A DNA stretch of 63,716 nt, the filler included, from Licmophora abbreviata (lineage: Eukaryota), in assembly GCA_900291995.1 (NCBI GenBank). It is 9 parts of 9 records of this genome, joined end to end, with 100 filler letters (N's around TTAATTAATTAA, not from the genome) between each part and the next. Parts side by side here need not be neighbours in the genome. Positions count along the whole stretch, not along the records: positions 5,341 to 19,488 come from OLMU01001679.1; 8 more parts are not named here. One strand, written 5' to 3'. This document shows, piece by piece, positions 13,327 to 24,900 of the stretch. The notes below the pieces were generated by a model. The model saw only the letters and a list, made by a program, of their open reading frames with translations. It did not search any database and was not told the DNA's origin. The number at the start of each line of letters is the position of its first letter. The stretch's first letter is position 1. The position numbers and the translations under genes are program-made.

Positions 13327-13689
13327 GTTGACTCTGCCAGGTTTGACAAGATACCGCCGGTACTGGCACAACCAACTCACATCACTGATGATGATGATGC
13401 GATGTGATCTCAAATCCGGATCGAGACGCATCACATCATCGATACGGCGCAAAGATGAAAAGATTCGGTCGCACAAGCCCGGCGCGATAAAAGATTCATA
13501 TCTCCGGGTTCTATGTTCTTGATAAAAATCGATCGCATTCTTCCATTTTTGTTTCAAAACTAGCACATTCGAACCTGACACGCAACAACGCGCCGCCGCC
13601 GGCGAGCAGGTTGCGATACCGGCACCGTCATTCAAGCATAAGATGGCGTCATGAGCCACCACCCACCACAGTAGGCCCTTGGATGTACC

Positions 13690-15855
13690 ATGTCCGCCAA
13701 CAGAGGATTCTGGAAGCCTGCTCCGGCTTCCTCTGTTCTCAAGGAAGAGCGTCAGTCGTCCGAAGTGATTTCAGTTCCATTCAACTTCACCTCGGCTCCC
13801 CTTGCCCAGCAGCGACTGCTCCTTCCCATTTACAAGCACAAGCGCCAGATTCTCTACACGCTCGAGACGCATCACGTGGTGGTTCTTGTTGGAGAAACTG
13901 GATCTGGAAAAAGCACACAGATCCCGCAGTACTTGTTGGAAAATGGATGGGCTGATCAAGGCTTCCAGATTGTCTGTACACAGCCTCGTCGAATAGCTGC
14001 GCAGAGTCTCGCCCAGCGAGTCGCCAAAGAAGTGGGATGCCCTCTGGGACAGCAAGTGGGATATACGGTACGCTTCGATGACGCATCGTCTCCTTCGACC
14101 CGAATTAAGTACGTGACGGATGGTATGCTGCTGAGAGAGGCGACACTGTCGGATCCGCTCTTGTCGCAATACTCGGTCGTCATGGTCGATGAAGCCCATG
14201 AACGGAGCCTAAACTCGGATGCTCTCTTGGGGATTCTCAAAAAGATTCGTAGAAAAAGACCCAGTCTACGAATCATTGTTTGTAGTGCCACCATTGATGC
14301 ACAGGCATTTTTAGACTTCTTCGTTCCACCCAAGAGCGACGGAAATACGAATACCGTGCCACCCGCAACGAAACGACGGCGGCGATGGGGGCGGGTAGAA
14401 GACGAAGTAGTAGAAGAGTCAAAACAACTATCAGAATCATCAGTGGACGCCGGAGCAGTTATCTCAGTGGATGGGAGGCAGTACTCGGTAGATGCGCTGT
14501 ATCTGCCACAGCCCTCGTCGGACTATATTCGGAGTACTGTCGAAACAGTGTTGCAGATTCTCCAAAATGAAAATGGTGACGACATCCTGTGCTTCCTTCC
14601 ATCGGGAGAGGACATCGACCATGCTATCCGCCTAGCAGAAGACCATCTTGGAACGATGGAACTGCCCAAGTCGAAGCAGAATATTGCCTTTCTTCCGCTG
14701 TATGGTACACTGCCTTATCAGATGCAAGCACGAGTCTTCCAGCCAAAAGCACCTTCGGAACGCAGCATTCGTCGTATTATCTTTGCCACCAATATAGCAG
14801 AGACATCCGTGACGGTACCCGACATTACGCATGTCATTGACTGCGGTTTTGCAAAGCTTCCATACTTTGATCCTAGAACAGGATTTGATCGACTGATTGT
14901 ATCGCCGATAAGTCAAGCCAGCGCCAGACAGCGAATGGGACGGGCTGGACGAGTGCAATCCGGCAAGTGCTATCGTCTGTACACAGAAAAGCATATGGCG
15001 GAAAAGATGATAGACTCGACCGCTCCCGAGGTACTACGGTCGAATCTGACGGGCTTTGTTCTCACGTTGAAAGCGCTTGGTATCCACAACGTACTTGCGT
15101 TTGATTTGCTGGACTTACCCAGCGTGGAAGCGCTCTCGCACGGGTTGGAGTGCTTGTATGCACTTGGTGCATTAGACGATGACACGCAGCTCACTTCCAG
15201 AGGACTGGATATGTCGGCCTTTCCGACGGAACCTCGTGTATCGCGTATGCTGCTGGAGTCTCTCGACATGGGGTGCGCTTGGGAAGTATTGGCCGTCGCC
15301 AGTGCCCTGCAAGTGCGGGCCTTGTTCTTTCAACCTCGCACCCAGCGGCAGAGACTGGACTACGATGCCGCCATGCCAGATCTTGCCGATCCCAGTGGGG
15401 ATCATGTCACGTTTGCAAACCTGATTGCCGAAATGGACGATCGGGAAATGGACCAAGAGGAATGCAAGGAGAAGTTCATCAATTACGTCGCGCTCAAACG
15501 GGCCATGGAGGTGCGGAACCAGTTGTCTCGGTTTCTGAAACGATATGGTCGAGTCCAGGCAATGGGTCTGTCGGAAGACGATCAAGAACGCAGCAGAGCA
15601 ATTCGCAAATGTGTTGCATCGGGATTCTTCTTCAATGTGGCCAAGCTTGCGAACGACGGCCGATACTACACACTCCGAGGCAAGCATATGGTTGCCCCGA
15701 GTCAAGCAAGTGTGTTGCACTCGCATGGAGAGACGAGCGAGTACATTGTGTTTGGGGAAACGCACGACGGTGCTCGTGGTGGTATTGAGATACGGGCGTG
15801 CAGCATCATTGAAGCGAAGTGGCTCCGAGAACTTGCTCCACACTATTGGGCGTAA
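13690..15855 (+). CDS. DHX35: DEAH-box ATP-dependent RNA helicase (DHX35-like)
   Basis: GETGSGKST, TQPRR, DEAH, SAT, ATNIAETSVT, QRMGRAGR; short N-terminus FWKP...QQRLLLPIYKHK typical of DHX35. Confidence 0.85.
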   Translation: MSANRGFWKPAPASSVLKEERQSSEVISVPFNFTSAPLAQQRLLLPIYKHKRQILYTLETHHVVVLVGETGSGKSTQIPQYLLENGWADQGFQIVCTQPRRIAAQSLAQRVAKEVGCPLGQQVGYTVRFDDASSPSTRIKYVTDGMLLREATLSDPLLSQYSVVMVDEAHERSLNSDALLGILKKIRRKRPSLRIIVCSATIDAQAFLDFFVPPKSDGNTNTVPPATKRRRRWGRVEDEVVEESKQLSESSVDAGAVISVDGRQYSVDALYLPQPSSDYIRSTVETVLQILQNENGDDILCFLPSGEDIDHAIRLAEDHLGTMELPKSKQNIAFLPLYGTLPYQMQARVFQPKAPSERSIRRIIFATNIAETSVTVPDITHVIDCGFAKLPYFDPRTGFDRLIVSPISQASARQRMGRAGRVQSGKCYRLYTEKHMAEKMIDSTAPEVLRSNLTGFVLTLKALGIHNVLAFDLLDLPSVEALSHGLECLYALGALDDDTQLTSRGLDMSAFPTEPRVSRMLLESLDMGCAWEVLAVASALQVRALFFQPRTQRQRLDYDAAMPDLADPSGDHVTFANLIAEMDDREMDQEECKEKFINYVALKRAMEVRNQLSRFLKRYGRVQAMGLSEDDQERSRAIRKCVASGFFFNVAKLANDGRYYTLRGKHMVAPSQASVLHSHGETSEYIVFGETHDGARGGIEIRACSIIEAKWLRELAPHYWA

Positions 15856-15948: not shown

Positions 15949-16728
15949 TCACATTTTAGCCGAATCCACACTCTTAATTGCATCTCGAAAGTTCTCGAGA
16001 GTCGTGTGTAGCATTTTGTTTTGTACAAAGGCTGCCATCTTGCTCGAGCGACGAAACAGCGACGCAACAACGCGTGGCGCGACAAACGTCATCGTCATAG
16101 TCATGTTGGTCTTGCCATCTTCCAGTGAGCGAAAGTCAACTCGGCCAAAGTTCTTCAAGCCAGACGTGCTCTCCCACTCAATCAAGTGCGGCCGTTCGAG
16201 ACGAGTAGCAATCGAAGTCCATGAGAAGCGAGCGCCCATGAACTTCATGGTCCACTTGGTCTCTCCAAGATTCTCTCCGATGCGATCGGCGCCATCCTCG
16301 GGCGGAGTTAAGTACTCGACGGAGTGCAACCACGGGGAGAAGGTTGATTGTCTGGGAAGATCTGAGAAGGCGTCGAATGCTTCATGCGCCGAGAATGGCA
16401 TATCCAGAGATGTCGAAACGACAATCTGTTTGCCCGCCTGACGCTGGTGTTTTCGTGCAGGCTCGCCATCACAGTGTCGATCTGAGGTGTCTTGCGCGTC
16501 CAAAGTCTCTTGAGTAGTGCACTGAGCCACTGTTGATCGGGTCGTTTCACTGATCAAGCTCCATCGACGTGAACGGCCAGGGAGGGAAGTCAACCCTGTC
16601 GAGATTCGGGGGCCAGGTGAAGCTATGATGGTTCCATGGAGCGGCTTACGGGTATTCTGTATCGAGAAAGCCGAGGAAGACGGCCACAGCAGCACCAAAA
16701 GAGCGACGCAGAGCAAACTCCGATCCAT
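15949..16728 (-). CDS. SRPBCC/START (polyketide cyclase-like) domain protein, probably plastid-targeted
   Basis: Signal peptide ending SSA-F; AFDAFSDL...SPWLHSV...KWTM...IEWESTSGLKNFGRVDF...LENFRD pattern. Confidence 0.75.
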   Translation of the reverse strand: MDRSLLCVALLVLLWPSSSAFSIQNTRKPLHGTIIASPGPRISTGLTSLPGRSRRWSLISETTRSTVAQCTTQETLDAQDTSDRHCDGEPARKHQRQAGKQIVVSTSLDMPFSAHEAFDAFSDLPRQSTFSPWLHSVEYLTPPEDGADRIGENLGETKWTMKFMGARFSWTSIATRLERPHLIEWESTSGLKNFGRVDFRSLEDGKTNMTMTMTFVAPRVVASLFRRSSKMAAFVQNKMLHTTLENFRDAIKSVDSAKM

Positions 16729-17099
16729 CCTTCTTAATCTAGACTCCACTGATTGCGAGATGAATGTGAAAAGCCTGTCAGCCAACAGCGACGCTGTTAT
16801 CATCATCAGAGCATCGTCGTCGCGTCTGATGATGTGTTAGTCATGATGTTGTGCAACAGCGCTGCGAAAAAACATCATCACGCGTCAGCGCCGTCTGTCG
16901 TCTGTCATCACGTGCATGCTGTCGCTTGCCTTAGTTAAGAGGAAAGAAGTAGCATGTGAAAATCAATGTTATATCGGTACTAAATTATAGGTCATTCTAA
17001 CCATGGCTCTCGTCGTATTGCTGCCATCAGACGCTTCATCAAGCAAGCTCAAGTATGCAGTACCGCGGTACAGTCTACTGGCACACGCCAGGACGCCCC

Positions 17100-19488
17100 T
17101 CAGGCGTCGTAGGCGAATCCGTCGTCGCTGGTCTCGTCCTCGAAATCGTGCTCCTCATGCTGCGAATCTTCCAACTTGCTCATGCTCGCGCCCACGCCAG
17201 TCTCCTTGGCCCAAACGTCCTCGTCCTCATCGGTAGAGTCCGACCAAAACTCTTTGGCCTTTGCCCGAGCAACGTCTTCATGCGTTTCATACGCCGATGC
17301 CCGTTTCGTCTCGAGATTCATCGCCGACTTCGTTTCGTCCATCAACAAAGGATTGAATGAGTTGCTTTCGACAAAGTCCAAAGAATTTTCCACGCACTCA
17401 GCAAGCTGCTTCATGGTTTCAACGTCATCGTTCGCATTTACAGAAAAGGCCTCGTTGCTTCCTGCGTCGAGAAGCTGATCGGACGATGCATAGCGAAAGA
17501 GAACTCCCGACGATGGAATCGGCTTTCGAGAAAGCGTATCAGTATCAGGCTGCGACATGGTGGTAGAGTATTGTGCCCCACTTCGCCCTAAGTCTCGACA
17601 CGGCAGCTCTTCCGCCATGAGAAGGAACATTTGGCCGTCCATGTGATGCAAAGCGGGACCAAAATCTTCCGAAATGCGTTTGCCACTGCCCGAGGAGCGC
17701 AACAGTAGAGCAGCTTCCTTTTCACACAAGTAACGAAGAAACAAACTCACGAGCGACTTCATGGTCTTGTATTGATCAAGGTCGGCTTCCAGTCCGGCTC
17801 GGACTTCCATTGGAACTCCGAAGAGGAGCGAGGCGTCCACGCACGACACAGGAATGACCTGCAGAACCTCAAAACTGGAATCGACAAGCAGCTGAAGATC
17901 GGCTAGCATACCCGTGGCAGCCATGGAGTCTGCACGGTACGGCATGATCTTGTAGTCGACATTCAAGGACAACGAACATTGCATGCCATCGACAGTCTCA
18001 GGAAGATCGAATGATAGCGTTCCAACGCTGCCACTGCGAGGGCGCATGACTTGGCGCATCCACTTGCGACCCAAAGCTCTAAAGTCTAGCGAGGTGCAGT
18101 CAATCGACGAGATACTGATGTTGGGTGGACTCGTCGTTTCGTTGTATCCACGCATTGTCTTGAAGTCTTCCTGGGCACGTTTGGCAATCTGCTGAGTGAT
18201 GCAGTCGATAATCTTGGTCGCATGCTGGAGTTTCGGATTCGGCCCGTCGTTTTCCATGTCGGACGACGTGTCCATCACATCGCCCTCCGCTTCATGCGAG
18301 TTGTTGGATAGCAGTTCGATAGATCCCGTGTCCACAACGACGATTTCGATCGCTCCAACAATGGTATCACGGAAGGCCGGACCAACACGCTCCCAGAAAC
18401 GATTCAAGGCGAGCTTGTGTGAATGCTCTTTCGTGTCGCAAAGCAAGGCCACATCGTGTGTCAAAATGGTCACGTGTAGAGGAGCGACGTGTGCCGCAGT
18501 CGAAGGTTCGGAAGCTTGATGCAGTTTTCCATTCTCTTGCACAACCTTGTCCACTATGGAACGAAAGAGCGTGCCAGCTCACATGTAAGCATCGTAGAGA
18601 AGAACGCACTACATCGCACTCGACAGCATCTACATCCACATTTGTATTCAACGTACCCAAGTCCCCAAAGAGCTTCCACGAGTCATGCGCAAGCAGTCTC
18701 TTGGGCACGTGAACGGCCGTCGTATGTTCCACATTTTTGGCATTTGCCGGCGGACGGACCGGCACGACGTTCCACACATCGACCGACAGGTCCTCCAGAA
18801 ACAAGGCCAGCTCCTCGTCCACATATTCCGCCTGTACACCAATCGCCTTGCGCGATGAGGACGTCAGAACGGCTACACGTTTCTTCGTACGGCTGTTGTT
18901 GTTGTTGTTGTCCAAAAAGGACGATCCCAAGAAGGAGGGAGCAATGCCTTTCTGTGCCAGAGTACGGAGAAGAGATTGAGTGTGTTGGAGGAATTCTTTG
19001 CTGACACTCCGACCTTGATCGGTGTCGAGTGCACGGGTGTCGACGAGCAGAGCATGTCGGACACGCGTCGAAGGCATCGCCCGTGGTGGGTCTCGATGCT
19101 GCTGCTGCTGCTGAGAGAAGGCGTGATTGTGATCCGAGCGAGACGAGGGAGAAGCCTGCAGAGGGGAATCGAGAGAATCTACGGGGCTCGTGGAGGCCGC
19201 AGAAGACTTCCTAGTAGTCAGCGGTCCCGCACGACGCATGTTCTTCTTGGTCTTGCTTGTCGCGTTCTTGCTACTCGATGGTCGTGAATCTTTCGTCGAC
19301 CTGTCATCGTCTCCGTCGTCATACTTGAAAGCGAGCAAGTTCTCTCCGATATAGTGCTCGTTGCGGGTGGCGTTGCTCGTGGTGGTGGAAGTGACATTGT
19401 CCGTCGCAGGAGCATTGGTCGTCGTCGTCGTCTTCTTCTTCTTCTTGTCGAGGAAGACGACGCCGCGTGCCGGTCGGAGGAGCCAAAG
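17100..19488 (-). CDS. M1AP (meiosis 1 arrest protein)-like protein, 5' truncated by gap; intron 18554-18656
   Basis: The GT-AG intron joins KLFGDL|VDKVVQ. Ordered motifs resemble M1AP: LHVTILT, IEIVVV, SIDCTSLDFRALGRKW, VLQVIPVSCVDASLLFGVPM, FLRYLCEKEAALLL, YASSDQLL, VENSLDFVESNSFNPL. Confidence 0.65.
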
Positions 19489-19588
19489 NNNNNNNNNNNN
19501 NNNNNNNNNNNNNNNNNNNNNNNNNNNNNNNNTTAATTAATTAANNNNNNNNNNNNNNNNNNNNNNNNNNNNNNNNNNNNNNNNNNNN
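19489..19588. other. Artificial scaffold spacer
   Basis: N44-TTAATTAATTAA-N44; truncates the 5' ends of both flanking divergent genes. Confidence 0.98.
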
Positions 19589-21779
19589 TGCCGACAAGAA
19601 ACGACGAACATTATCCTCACCAACTTCCGCAGGCATCCATCCAAGTCGCCTTAGAGACTCTGGAGGAGCACGGATTCTTTCAGACGGACGTGACACAGCC
19701 TTTTGGACTGGGTACCAAGTGTGCCAAGACCTATGTGACGCGTTGCCTCTTGGGCAATTCTGGGTCTACCTACCGATATTTAGGAATGCGTATGTTTGCC
19801 TACCAATGGGATGACAACAGGAAGTCGTCGGCCGACTCTGATGGTGGCACGACGGCACTTACGTCTGCAATATCAACCATGTTTCGACTTAATACACAGC
19901 TAATGGAACGTACAGAGTATCACCTGCGAGAGTTGGACACGAAGCGAAGGAGTCGTGGAGCCGAGCAAACGAGAGGGCGGGCGGTCTTTGATATTGCACT
20001 CATCAACCGCATGGAATATAGTACCAACCTCAAGAAAGAGCCCATGATGGGAGATGCAAGGTGTTCTGTTTCGTGGCATGCTGACTCGAGTCTGGAACAC
20101 TATTCGTCCATTGCTGTCCATCACACGATTCGGAACCACAGTGCCGACGATGCTGCAGGATCGTGGTCGGTCGCTCTTCGCGTCGCCCATCACGCAGAAG
20201 GACCGACTGCGTCTCATCGCGACACGGGCGGTGGTGAGTCCTCCCTGGTCACTGCGACCCCACCAATTTCTGTTTCTCTTCCCTCGGGAGCTGTCTACTA
20301 CCTGTTGGACGACTTCAATCACCATCACCAGCACACTGTGCTTGCGTCAGGGGGCGGCGCCGGAGTCCGTTTCTCGTCAACGCACCGCTTGTTACGCGAA
20401 AGTCACAATGTGAGCTCATTGTTGGAGAGGTGCCGAACTGTCTGTGCTACCTTTCATAAGAAAGGACCCAAAGTCTGGCGTTCTGAGCAACTCCTCATCA
20501 CTGACATGGAATCGGAGTGGCTGAGGCAATTTTTCATCCAAGGTCAACAGCACTACGATCTACTCTGGGAGGTGAGTCGTCTCATGCGGGGGACTGTTAC
20601 GCACATATCATTTTATGCATTCTAGTAGGACACTGAGCACTGCTATCCTCTTCTGCACAGGCATGGGGTGAGCCGATGAACCGACTTCTTGGCTACTGGA
20701 GTCAGTTGGAATCTCGAACGAAACAGGTCGTCGATTTTCTTCGAGCTGCCGCAGAGGGGCGATGCATGTCAAATGATAGCGCACCGTTAAGGTCGGATCC
20801 TTCTCCTTCTCGTCGAGAACGCAAGCTGCGGGAAAGAAGAAAAAAGGCCGCTTCGTCTATTGAAGAAATTATGGGCAGGCGAGTCAATCCATCGGAAATG
20901 GAGAGGTCAAGTGCATCGGAGTATATCTATGAGCCTCTGGCTACGCTGCTTCATGAACGGGCGTCAATGAGGGAGAAATGGTTAGAGCGCGAGACAGACG
21001 CTGCTTTTTGGAGCTGGATCCTCGGAATCGCCCGTTGCCCGTCCCGTTCCAGTTCGATGCGACTGGTGACGTCAAGACAACGAACGAGTGCGGCATCTCC
21101 CCACTACAAGGGTCGCCAGACGCTCTTCGCGACTTGGCATGTGCGCTGCGATCATGCGGTTGCGCCTTTGACTCGAAAGATGCAGCAGAGCTTCCCGAAC
21201 TTATAAACTCCCAGAGTAATGCATCTGACAAGGATAGTTGTCATATAGGGGTGGACGAGCACAATGTGGCGATGGATTGGGAAGGCTGGAGCAGCCGTAC
21301 ATTCGGTCTCGAAATGCAGCGACCATGGGCAGAGCTTCTGCTGGGTGGCAACAAGAAGGTCGAGACGCGAGCATATGACTTGCCTCCACAATTGTTGGGG
21401 CGCCGAATCGATATTCTGGAGTCATGCAAGGGAATGCCCGGGAAGTCATCCTTGCAAAACGTTGTCTCAATTGATCGGTCGACGGAGGAGGAGCCTGTGG
21501 TGAAAAGGGTTGGTTGGTGCACGTTCAAGCGCACTATGCGTTACCAAGACAGACAGGCGTTCGAAGCGGATGAAGACGCTCACTTGGTAACGCGTGAGAA
21601 CGGCTTCGGATGGAAGGATGACTCAAAGTGTGGTCATATACGGATGGGCCGTAGGCGAGCGAGGACACTACGCCCCGTCATCAGCTGATCAACTAACTGC
21701 GATCGTTCGGCGGAAGCGCTCTTTGTTCGAACTCTTCTGTGTCGACACCAATACATCGATTACAATTACGACGGCCTGA
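19589..21779 (+). CDS. FTO: FTO 2OG-Fe(II) nucleic-acid demethylase with C-terminal ASCH domain; 5' truncated, intron 20572-20660, frameshifts near 21007 and 21625
   Basis: VTRCLLG..GSTYRYLGMRMFAYQW, ALINRM, VSWHADSSL (HxD), YYLLDDFNHHHQHTVLA, RFSSTHR, MESEWLRQFFIQG; then GLEMQRPWAELLLGGNKKVETR (ASCH GxKxxExR) and YGWAV. Confidence 0.85.
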
Positions 21780-21908: not shown

Positions 21909-24900
21909 CTACCTTGATCTTGAGACCCGTACCTCAACAGAGATGACATCGCGGTCTATGGCAAGTTCCCATTCACCACCTCTTACGTCTCGGCACCCAA
22001 GCTCTGCTGTCACAACATACACTCCTTCGTCGATTAAACCAGGTAGATCGAGTTGAAAGAAAAATCTTCCCCCGTGTAGAAGTGGCCCGTCGTCGGATGA
22101 AAGTACGGGGGCGAACGATCGACCAGGCATCATGCTCACCATTTTGTCCTCTCCGTCGTCTCCGCCTCCATCGTCTTCAACGTGCAGGGGGCGATGAAAG
22201 GCTATCTTTGACCAGACTACGACTCGCTGAAAAGAGAGAGTGGCTGACTGGGATATTCCCATCGGCAGAATCCCACGAGCGTTTAGCTCCAATGGTACAC
22301 CGGGATAGACGACAAGCGACTCCCCCCTGTCGAGTTTCTCGTCCGTCGCTTGGTCACTTCCCGGAGAAAGCCGAAGCTGCGACGGCTGGCGACGCGACCT
22401 GAGGGCAAAGTCGACAGGTATAGGTGGTGGCGTCCGAAGAACGGCATCGAGAATGTCGGCCATTGCCGCCGCTCGATCTGAACGATTCATTGATGGCTCA
22501 AGCTCCTTCAAGACAAGATCTTGCAGTTTGTTGAGCAGCATCATCGACGGGAGCAATTGATCGCCTCTCGGCTCAAGCCCTTGTACCGCGTCATCGATGT
22601 TTCTCTTCGCCCCAGATTTCTCTAATAGCAACTTGTGGGATGTTCTTCCTATCCAGCCGCAAATGGAATGGCATGTTCGCAGCGAACTGCGCGACTGCTG
22701 GCGAAGAAATAGCCCGTGGCGCTTGTAGACGGCGTGAAAGCGAGAAGCAAGAATGTAAAAGCACTTCTGAACCTTTCGGAGATGGAGACCAGTGCGTGTA
22801 TTCAGCTTCGGCGTTGCATTCATCAACCGAATCTCCCTGCTTATGTAGCGCAGCGCCAGACAAAGTTCAAGAAAATCAACACGGAGCCTCAAGAAATCCA
22901 CTTGAAAGGAAAATCCATCGCCAAAAGAACTGAGAGATCTGATGGCTTCCAATCGCGACAGGGCAGATGCGAGTTGAGTCAAGCCAAATGTGAGCCCATC
23001 GGGGCCACGGAGCACAGATCCCTCGCCTGCTGCGAATGTCGAAAGTGTGCTCAGCCACGAGTATGACTCTTCGCTTGATGCCGACGTGGCAGCACTACCA
23101 TATAATCCACAAGCTGCGTCAAAGTTCCCGGTCACCAAAGCGAAGCGTGCCAGTTTGTAGCGGTCCCAGGGGCTCGTGATGCGTTTTTTTGTCAACTCTA
23201 TAACGGCGACCTGCGCGTCCTCGTGGACATCGCATGCCACTAGATACGCTTGTCGACATGCACAAAGAGCTCTCGCGATTTCCATAATGCAAGCTGTGTC
23301 TTCTTCGTCATTCGCAATACTTAATAACACCTTCTGCTTCCATTGCGCGACCAGCGGTTGTGAATTGGCAATCATACTTATCAGTTTACACGCCCTCCGC
23401 TTTTCTTTTGCTTGAGGTTTCTTCTGCAGCACCGATAGAAGTAGATTCATCATGGATATTGCAAATGGTTGCGAGAGTCGAGATAAAGTGGAAACGACTT
23501 CTCGCGTGTCTTTGAGCCGTGTGGCTCCGTGTTCATTCTCCGTGACGAATTCGATACTTTGTCGGACTGCGCTCGCATAGCTTGGCAATTTCTCATTGGG
23601 ACAATACGCACAGGCAACGACAAGCAGCAACGAAGCCGCTTGAACAATGCATTCGTCCGGGCACTGTAGTAGATGTATCGCACACCGAATAACCGACTCT
23701 TGCTCTCGACTGCGTTCTGTCCGCGACTCTTTCACGTCACATTTTATTTCATTGCCTTGATACAGAAGGAAATAGAACAGAGATCGAGCAGAAACAAGGA
23801 GCGAAGCAACGAGGCACCGAGAGGTCGGAATAACATCGTTCTTCGAATCTTTCTCTAGGCCGTTGACATAGTCTTCCAGCGGTCTGACTAGAGATGCGAT
23901 TGATCTTAATGTGAAAGAATCATCAGAGTAGTGCCGAGACTCATTGTACCGGAGAATGAACTGATGAATCAGGGTTCCTCTAGCATTGAGACAACAGACG
24001 TTGTTCGACGACCCAAGCCCATCGGTGCACGTGCACGTAGACCGATCTTCGACAGTGCGCTTGATGAGAAGATCCCAGTCTTCAAAGCTACTGCGCTCTT
24101 CCTTCCGCTGTACTGCTACATTCACTAGAGCACGGTCCGCCCAGCACCCGTCGGCGGGTCTCATCGCCAAAACGCCGAAAGCATAAAGCGCCGCACGCAG
24201 ATGTGGAATAGCGCCCTCAACGAGCTTCGTGTCACCTCGTGGCCAGTCATTCGTGGTATCATATTCGGGAACGACAAGGTGTTCAGCGACTAGTTTCACA
24301 AGCGTCACCCGATGCGCATAGTTTAGTTCAAAGTAGCGGGAAAGTTGCAAGTCGAGAAACTTCTTGGCATGTGCCCACGATATGCTGTCCTTTTCTTCCA
24401 AAACACGAGCCGTAGCCGGAATTGCCTCTGCGGACGCAACGGGTGCAACACACATACTTATGACATGAAGTAAGTCGACTTCGTGTGGGTGTGCCGGTCG
24501 TACGGAGAGGAACGCGCTCAACCCGTTCTGCACAAACGATTGGAACGCACGCTCGCGAGGACCGAACGTAACCGACCCAATCTCGCCAAATGCACCAGCA
24601 TCATAGAATTGAATAGAGTTTTGCAACCTTTCTTCGAGTTCCATTTCGAAGAACAGTTGAAATCGGCTTGCCTGAAGAGATTCGGAGGAGCCCCCGTTGA
24701 CCGCTGGATCCATCAGTGACAGAGAATTCCGCAACACGAAGAACTCGTTTCCAGTCGAAGAAGGAAGTAGAAAAGCAAGAAGGAAAATTGATGAAGCCCT
24801 CCAAACCGTTCCAAGTTCTTCTTCTGTCATGAAAGGAAGAAGCTCCGCTGATTCAGTAAGAAGCTAGTATAAGTCATACCATGATTTCAGGATGCAGACG

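What the first reader, a model, noticed from the sequence alone, without database searches (positions are those of the whole stretch)
17100..19488. Divergent M1AP (meiosis 1 arrest protein)-like gene in a diatom
Seen: splicing 18554-18656 produces one protein of more than 750 aa. About ten motifs match, in order, my recollection of mammalian M1AP: LHVTILT~LEITILT; SIDCTSLDFRALGRKW~TIDNDIVSMEIFFKAW; VDASLLFGVPMEVR~LCESLTYGLPFILR; YLCEKEAALLL~SLLKREWLLL; YASSDQLL~VATRELML; VENSLDFVESNSFNPL~VESMLDSLELEPTYNPL. Known: M1AP acts with the SHOC1-TEX11-SPO16 (ZZS) crossover complex in mammals. Inference: an overlooked class I crossover factor in the diatom meiotic toolkit and a possible marker of sexual reproduction.
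Basis: partly seen in the sequence, partly recalled or inferred. Interest (0 to 1): 0.7.

Follow-up and report, generated by a model that had tools for sequence, protein, structure and literature searches.

The report
Diatom M1AP-like, ring-less Ku-family gene
This is a real, single-copy diatom gene conserved across diatoms, predicted to fold like the Ku DNA-repair proteins but without their DNA ring, and likely related to the mammalian fertility protein M1AP, which would make a supposedly vertebrate-only meiosis helper far older.

Summary
The gene is real. Two minus-strand exons joined across a GT-AG intron (18656-18554) give 761 open codons; 30 of 37 long homologues run straight through the junction. 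The 'gap' at 19489 is a contig end, so the start codon is missing. At least 256 relatives exist; all five named ones are diatoms, pennate and centric. Models show vWA + Ku-type beta-barrel + helix (Ku Z 13.3-13.8, INTS14/13 about 10). It is not Ku itself: no DNA-encircling arm, and the genome has separate Ku70 and Ku80. M1AP orthology about 65%. A meiotic role is inferred only: no expression data were found, and no TEX11/SHOC1/SPO16 gene was detected (weak searches; also reported absent from diatoms). New member of a known kind; it would overturn 'M1AP is conserved only down to fish'.

The parts
18657..19488 (-). Exon 1, open to the contig end; start codon lies beyond 19488
   Evidence: 45% identity to P0003 residues 24-282
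18554..18656 (-). 103-nt GT-AG intron at a position shared by other diatoms
17100..18553 (-). Exon 2 to the TGA stop
   Evidence: 61-63% identity to P0003
19063..19488 (-). N-terminal low-complexity arm with a basic run (possible nuclear localisation signal, inferred)
   Evidence: pLDDT under 50 for residues 1-142 of homologue P0003; basic run of 4 or more in 15 of 34 rows
18048..19062 (-). vWA (Rossmann-type) domain, split by the intron; strand 1 ends in D-[TS]-R, not the DxSxS metal site
   Evidence: model of P0003 residues 157-455 matches vWA domains at Z 9-11.4; columns
17469..18020 (-). Ku/SPOC-type beta-barrel with a short 23-33 residue link where Ku has its DNA-encircling arm; most conserved part of the family
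   Evidence: (bacterial Ku core Z 11.4-11.8, SPOC 7.9-9.0)
17346..17423 (-). C-terminal helix ending in N-P-L (Ku C-arm equivalent); the block that best favours M1AP over Ku
17103..17345 (-). Acidic, largely disordered tail with a W-x-D-x-x-G-V-G-like motif and aromatic end
   Evidence: pLDDT under 50; motif in 96 of 185 rows, aromatic tail in 95 of 185
19489..19588 (.). Artificial spacer between contigs, not a scaffold gap

Best explanation
The gene encodes a conserved diatom protein predicted to have a vWA domain and a ring-less Ku-type barrel, likely the diatom member of the M1AP family, which would act in meiotic prophase as a non-catalytic adaptor that stabilises strand-invasion intermediates and favours crossovers. 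Shown: gene structure, single copy, conservation in pennate and centric diatoms, distinctness from the genome's own Ku70 and Ku80. Predicted: the fold, and the loss of the DNA-threading arm and of the vWA metal site. Inferred from the Atlas ranking and a by-eye motif count: M1AP orthology (about 65%). Inferred from mammalian M1AP only: meiotic timing and action on recombination intermediates, by protein-protein contacts through the vWA domain, barrel and conserved tail motif, with either highly diverged ZZS proteins or directly with the MSH4-MSH5/MER3 machinery that diatoms keep.
For: (C. closterium homologue P0090): features rank chordate M1AP 0.93 (182 of 256 shared), plant hypothetical 0.93, M1AP 0.92, then INTS13 0.91, INTS14 0.90, Treslin 0.79; structure, with Ku included, ranks M1AP first (score 1043; next 651 for a plant cluster with 21% M1AP_N; Ku 467 or less; no INTS13/14 row listed). 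Fold = vWA + Ku barrel + helix, the architecture published for M1AP. Not Ku: link of 23-33 residues in 180 of 180 rows with both anchors, own Ku70 and Ku80 elsewhere, no profile match to them. No INTS14-type DxSxS site. By-eye count of residues seen in at least 10% of a family column over 64 columns: human M1AP 25, Ku70 19 (22 with register shifts), Ku80 19; last helix 8 vs 4 vs 5 of 14. S. robusta homologue is a core gene with piN/piS 0.28. The genome keeps MND1.
Against: In one search Ku clusters were skipped in the feature search, TM is under 0.5, the Atlas model is poor (pTM 0.35), the aligned-part score is 'under the bar', and only 5 of the 10 best hits share a family, which the tool flags as 'probably wrong'. 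With exon 2 alone Ku clusters ranked first (0.83) and an M1AP_N-bearing cluster 15th (0.76). The 29-column helix block does not discriminate (M1AP 10, Ku70 11, Ku80 8). The by-eye count has no statistics. No named M1AP was retrieved by three homologue searches or among the 150 of 256 listed representatives. ZIP2, ZIP3, ZIP4 and MLH3 are reported not found in diatoms, so the known partners may be absent. The family is not among the published diatom sex markers searched. A published statement limits M1AP to vertebrates down to fish.
Confidence: 0.5

Rival explanations
1. An M1AP-related or independently Ku-derived ring-less paralogue that works in vegetative (mitotic) DNA repair or homologous recombination rather than in meiosis.
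For: Ku is the best solved fold (Z 13.3-13.8) and first by features for exon 2; ZZS partners are reported missing in diatoms; the gene is conserved and under purifying selection, which does not need sex.
Against: M1AP outranks Ku in the Atlas structure list; the only characterised M1AP proteins are meiotic.
Confidence: 0.22
2. A divergent Integrator arm subunit (INTS13 or INTS14), acting in snRNA 3' processing and transcription termination.
For: INTS13 0.91 (176 shared) and INTS14 0.90 are close behind M1AP; same architecture, Z 10.1-10.4; the genome has an INTS7-like gene and no other INTS13/14 was found (none among 16 vWA hits by eye).
Against: No DxSxS metal site, which INTS14 uses to bind INTS10; no Mat89Bb or IntS14 Pfam hit in 23 family proteins scanned; no INTS13/14 row in the Atlas structure list; INTS13-14 is an obligate pair but only one copy is seen.
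Confidence: 0.13
3. An MTBP/Sld7- or Treslin-type replication-origin firing factor, which shares the vWA + Ku-barrel front end.
For: Treslin, MTBP and Ku share this architecture; Sld7 N-domain matches the barrel at Z 8.9-9.2.
Against: Treslin_N only 0.79 and no MTBP cluster among the listed rows; no folded Sld3-Treslin domain follows the barrel.
Confidence: 0.1

Closest known systems
M1AP (meiosis 1 arrest/associated protein; Pfam 38.1 PF28287 M1AP_N)
   Same: vWA + Ku-core + C-arm architecture; first in both Atlas lists for a full-length homologue; best by-eye fit of the last helix
   Different: Long disordered basic N-arm and acidic tail; no sequence-level hit obtained; ZZS partners not found; meiotic expression unknown
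Ku70/Ku80 (XRCC6/XRCC5)
   Same: Best solved fold over residues 157-695 of P0003, Z 13.3-13.8, 10-12% identity; shared helix and barrel motifs
   Different: Short link in place of the DNA-encircling arm; no Pfam Ku hit; genome has its own Ku70 (with SAP) and Ku80
INTS13/INTS14 (Integrator arm)
   Same: vWA + barrel, Z about 10; Atlas 0.90-0.91
   Different: No DxSxS site; single copy; no Pfam hit
Treslin/TICRR and MTBP/Sld7
   Same: vWA + Ku-like barrel front end
   Different: No Sld3-Treslin domain; low Atlas score

Membership tests
M1AP | vWA + Ku-core barrel + C-arm architecture (PMC11377751) | tested here: met
M1AP | M1AP is the nearest family among Ku-like proteins | tested here: inconclusive
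   first by features (Ku skipped) and structure for P0090, but thin margins, TM under 0.5, and Ku first for exon 2 alone; by-eye count 25 vs 19-22 of 64
M1AP | Significant profile or reciprocal hit to M1AP / PF28287 | not testable with these tools
   PF28287 is not in the library; no M1AP protein came into the session; none in PDB sequence searches
M1AP | ZZS partners (SHOC1, TEX11, SPO16) present and bound | tested here: inconclusive
   0 hits for PF08631, PF17825, PF15162 with no positive control ringing; the 4 ERCC4 genes found look like active nucleases, not SHOC1, by eye; binding not testable
M1AP | Expression and function restricted to meiotic prophase | not testable with these tools
   no RNA holder listed; homologue id absent from supplements searched
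Ku70/Ku80 | Long bridge/pillar arm in the barrel that encircles DNA (about 70 residues, recalled) | tested here: not met
   23-33 residues between the flanking strands in 180 of 180 rows with both anchors, of 185 (strands)
Ku70/Ku80 | Pfam Ku (PF02735) match | tested here: not met
   0 of 23 family proteins, while the genome's two Ku genes pass the cut-off
INTS14 | DxSxS metal-ion site on the vWA domain | tested here: not met
   D-[TSCMN]-R in 33 of 34 rows at strand 1, the other row misaligned; definition
INTS13/INTS14 | Paired paralogue forming an interlinked heterodimer | tested here: inconclusive
   only one locus matches P0003; a remote partner would be missed
Treslin/TICRR | Sld3-Treslin helical domain after the barrel | tested here: not met
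   only two helices then disorder after the barrel; definition
MTBP/Sld7 | C-terminal S7MC domain and Treslin binding | not tested
   no search run for MTBP families

The most novel reading that the evidence does not exclude
Probability: 0.3. Interest if true: 0.75.

Novelty: new member of a known kind. Interest (0 to 1): 0.52.

Why it matters
[quoted passage not shown] A diatom-wide M1AP family, beside plant clusters that carry M1AP_N in 21% of members, would push it back to early eukaryotes. The published diatom meiotic toolkit lacks ZIP2/3/4 and leaves open whether they are lost or unrecognisable (PMC4647503); this protein is a direct bait for that question. Public sex transcriptomes of S. 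robusta and C. closterium make the test a table look-up with the ids given here. Only one of four data-driven diatom sex markers spans centric and pennate species; this family does.

Tried and rejected
Pfam scans: no relevant family for 23 proteins (2 window pieces, 21 of about 185 homologues). PDB sequence searches: 0 hits for P0001, noise for A1, weak vWA hit Ssl1 at E 0.17 for A3. Third homologue search with the 150-row alignment returned only 2 proteins, so stepping stones to non-diatom relatives were not reached; 106 of the 256 representatives (all weaker than E 3e-53) were not listed. Two metagenome locus scans found nothing. Own-genome family searches for SPO22, SHOC1, SPO16, INTS13, INTS14 barrel and Treslin_N gave 0 with no control ringing: no evidence of absence. 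zf-RING_5 gave 62 generic RING hits; the two loci whose frames I printed (L005, L008) were not HEI10-like by eye, the rest not examined. No RNA holder listed; one guessed-RNA run had two short contigs inside the exons, none across the intron. Homodimer prediction: no answer, score 0.00. Earlier findings of the scan: none. Rejected: the FTO gene as a neighbour (other contig); the first in-frame ATG at 19239 as start (homology extends upstream). Literature searches for a diatom or plant M1AP found nothing relevant in the listings; the mouse M1AP-ZZS paper was not held, bioRxiv supplements are closed, and the Zenodo expression tables of PMC12618581 could not be seen and may bear on expression.

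Full report
Observation. The region holds two long minus-strand frames. Removing 18656-18554 (103 nt, GTACGT...TAG) gives 761 codons and one stop. Many other GT-AG pairs would also open the frame, so I tested the junction on homologues: of 37 that cover both halves, 30 run through with 25-40 residues between anchors, 6 have a read-through insert at exactly this point (a shared intron position) and 1 has an insert elsewhere. The N-run at 19489 is an artificial spacer, one of eight; 19488 is the end of contig C1679. Homology to P0003 reaches residue 15 of exon 1, so the start is off the contig. The gene is single-copy in the assembly by a search with P0003.

Family. 36 relatives came from a single-sequence search and 256 representatives at E up to 0.001 from the profile, 150 of them listed. 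Of 28 clusters looked up, 5 carried an organism name, all diatoms: Seminavis robusta, Cylindrotheca fusiformis, C. closterium, Nitzschia inconspicua, Thalassiosira exigua; all are annotated as unknown or hypothetical. The S. robusta gene Sro1095_g240650 is a core gene without InterPro description, piN/piS 0.28 (PMC7335047 supplement row). No Pfam family of relevance hit 23 family proteins.

Anatomy. AlphaFold2 on the full-length homologue P0003 (61% identical; 150-row alignment; mean pLDDT 74, pTM 0.71) and on the window's exon 2 gives a disordered N-arm, a vWA domain, a Ku/SPOC beta-barrel, a C-terminal helix and a disordered acidic tail. Foldseek and VIA put Ku70/80 first (E 1.2e-10; Z 13.8, rmsd 6.1, 316 aligned). 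The wide searches give Ku80 Z 13.3, bacterial Ku 11.4-12.2, INTS14 10.4 and 10.1, INTS13 vWA 10.1, Sld7 8.9-9.2, SPOC domains 7.9-9.2. M1AP did not appear among solved structures. Between the second and third barrel strands the family has 23-33 residues in 180 of 180 rows, where Ku carries an arm of about 70 residues that encircles DNA (recalled), so the protein is predicted not to thread onto DNA ends. The genome has its own Ku70 (with SAP) and Ku80, and the family profile does not match them. The vWA strand 1 ends in D-x-R, not the DxSxS site INTS14 needs to bind INTS10 (PMC7347597 passages). No Sld3-Treslin domain follows the barrel (PMC8807876 passages).

Which Ku-like family. For the C. 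closterium homologue P0090 the ESM Atlas ranks chordate M1AP 0.93 (182 of 256 features), a plant hypothetical cluster 0.93, M1AP 0.92, INTS13 0.91, INTS14 0.90, Treslin 0.79, with Ku clusters skipped; by structure, Ku included, M1AP is first (TM 0.37/0.48, score 1043), plant clusters next (651, 515), Ku after (467 or less). Against: the Atlas model is poor, TM is under 0.5, the score is under the tool's naming bar, only 5 of 10 best hits share a family, and exon 2 alone ranked Ku first at 0.83 with an M1AP_N-bearing plant cluster at 0.76. That M1AP is a vWA + Ku-core protein is published (PMC11377751 passages and supplements). Comparing it by eye with the family's column frequencies (a match = residue in at least 10% of a column; 64 columns), human M1AP scores 25, Ku70 19 (22 with register shifts), Ku80 19: the long helix does not discriminate (10, 11, 8 of 29), the last helix does (8, 4, 5 of 14). 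This is modest and has no statistics. I put Ku-superfamily membership above 95% and M1AP orthology at about 65%.

Mechanism. In mammals M1AP binds SHOC1, TEX11 and SPO16 and raises class I crossover numbers without being essential (PMC12162868 passages). By inference the diatom protein would be a non-catalytic adaptor on meiotic recombination intermediates. The partner is the weak link. Searches for SPO22/TEX11, SHOC1 and SPO16 found nothing but had no working control; MND1 was found; the four ERCC4 genes are XPF-like, MUS81-like and two with active-site-like motifs by eye. [quoted passage not shown] Expression could not be tested: no RNA holder, and the S. robusta id is absent from the held supplements of PMC12618581, PMC8027222 and PMC6688387; a single-cell preprint does not mention M1AP or ZZS in its main text. 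Rivals: vegetative repair paralogue 0.22, Integrator arm subunit 0.13, origin-firing factor 0.10.

Novelty. Listings showed no paper on a diatom or plant M1AP; passages of PMC11936186 and bioRxiv 2022.03.02.482557 had nothing on it. PMC12162868 states M1AP is conserved only down to fish, although Atlas plant clusters already carry the Pfam M1AP_N label in 21% of members, so wider distribution is implicit in databases. Verdict: a real gene, a probable new member of a known family, function inferred. Interest 0.52; 0.75 if it proves to be a meiotic crossover factor working without a recognisable ZZS.

Noticed in passing
window 19440-19488: Near the contig end a second frame reads a Ser-rich stretch then an Arg run that resembles the homologues' basic N-terminal patch as well as the main frame does; a one-base assembly error in the AAG/ACG repeat is possible.
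   Followed up: partly
window 19591-20571 (+): FTO-like RNA demethylase gene (FTO_NTD E 1.6e-59); it lies on a different contig from the finding.
   Followed up: partly
window 21909-24863 (-): INTS7-like gene (INTS7_HB E 1.2e-6): the diatom has at least part of Integrator.
   Followed up: partly
window 13675-15855 (+) and 15949-16731 (-): True neighbours: a DEAH-box RNA helicase (DHX35-like label recalled) and a polyketide-cyclase/START-fold protein; no functional link evident.
   Followed up: partly
L012:1109-3352 (-), L013:1-2919 (+): Two ERCC4-family nucleases beyond XPF and MUS81, with intact-looking catalytic motifs by eye; L013 has UIM-like repeats and a C-terminal part that may be a second nuclease-like domain.
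   Followed up: no
L017, L018, L021, L029: vWA genes that look bacterial by eye: the assembly G000 probably includes bacterial contigs.
   Followed up: no
window 17190-17230 and family tails: A W-x-D-x-x-G-V-G-like motif and an aromatic C-terminal end recur in about half of 185 rows inside a disordered tail, repeated in some members; a likely short docking motif for an unknown partner.
   Followed up: partly
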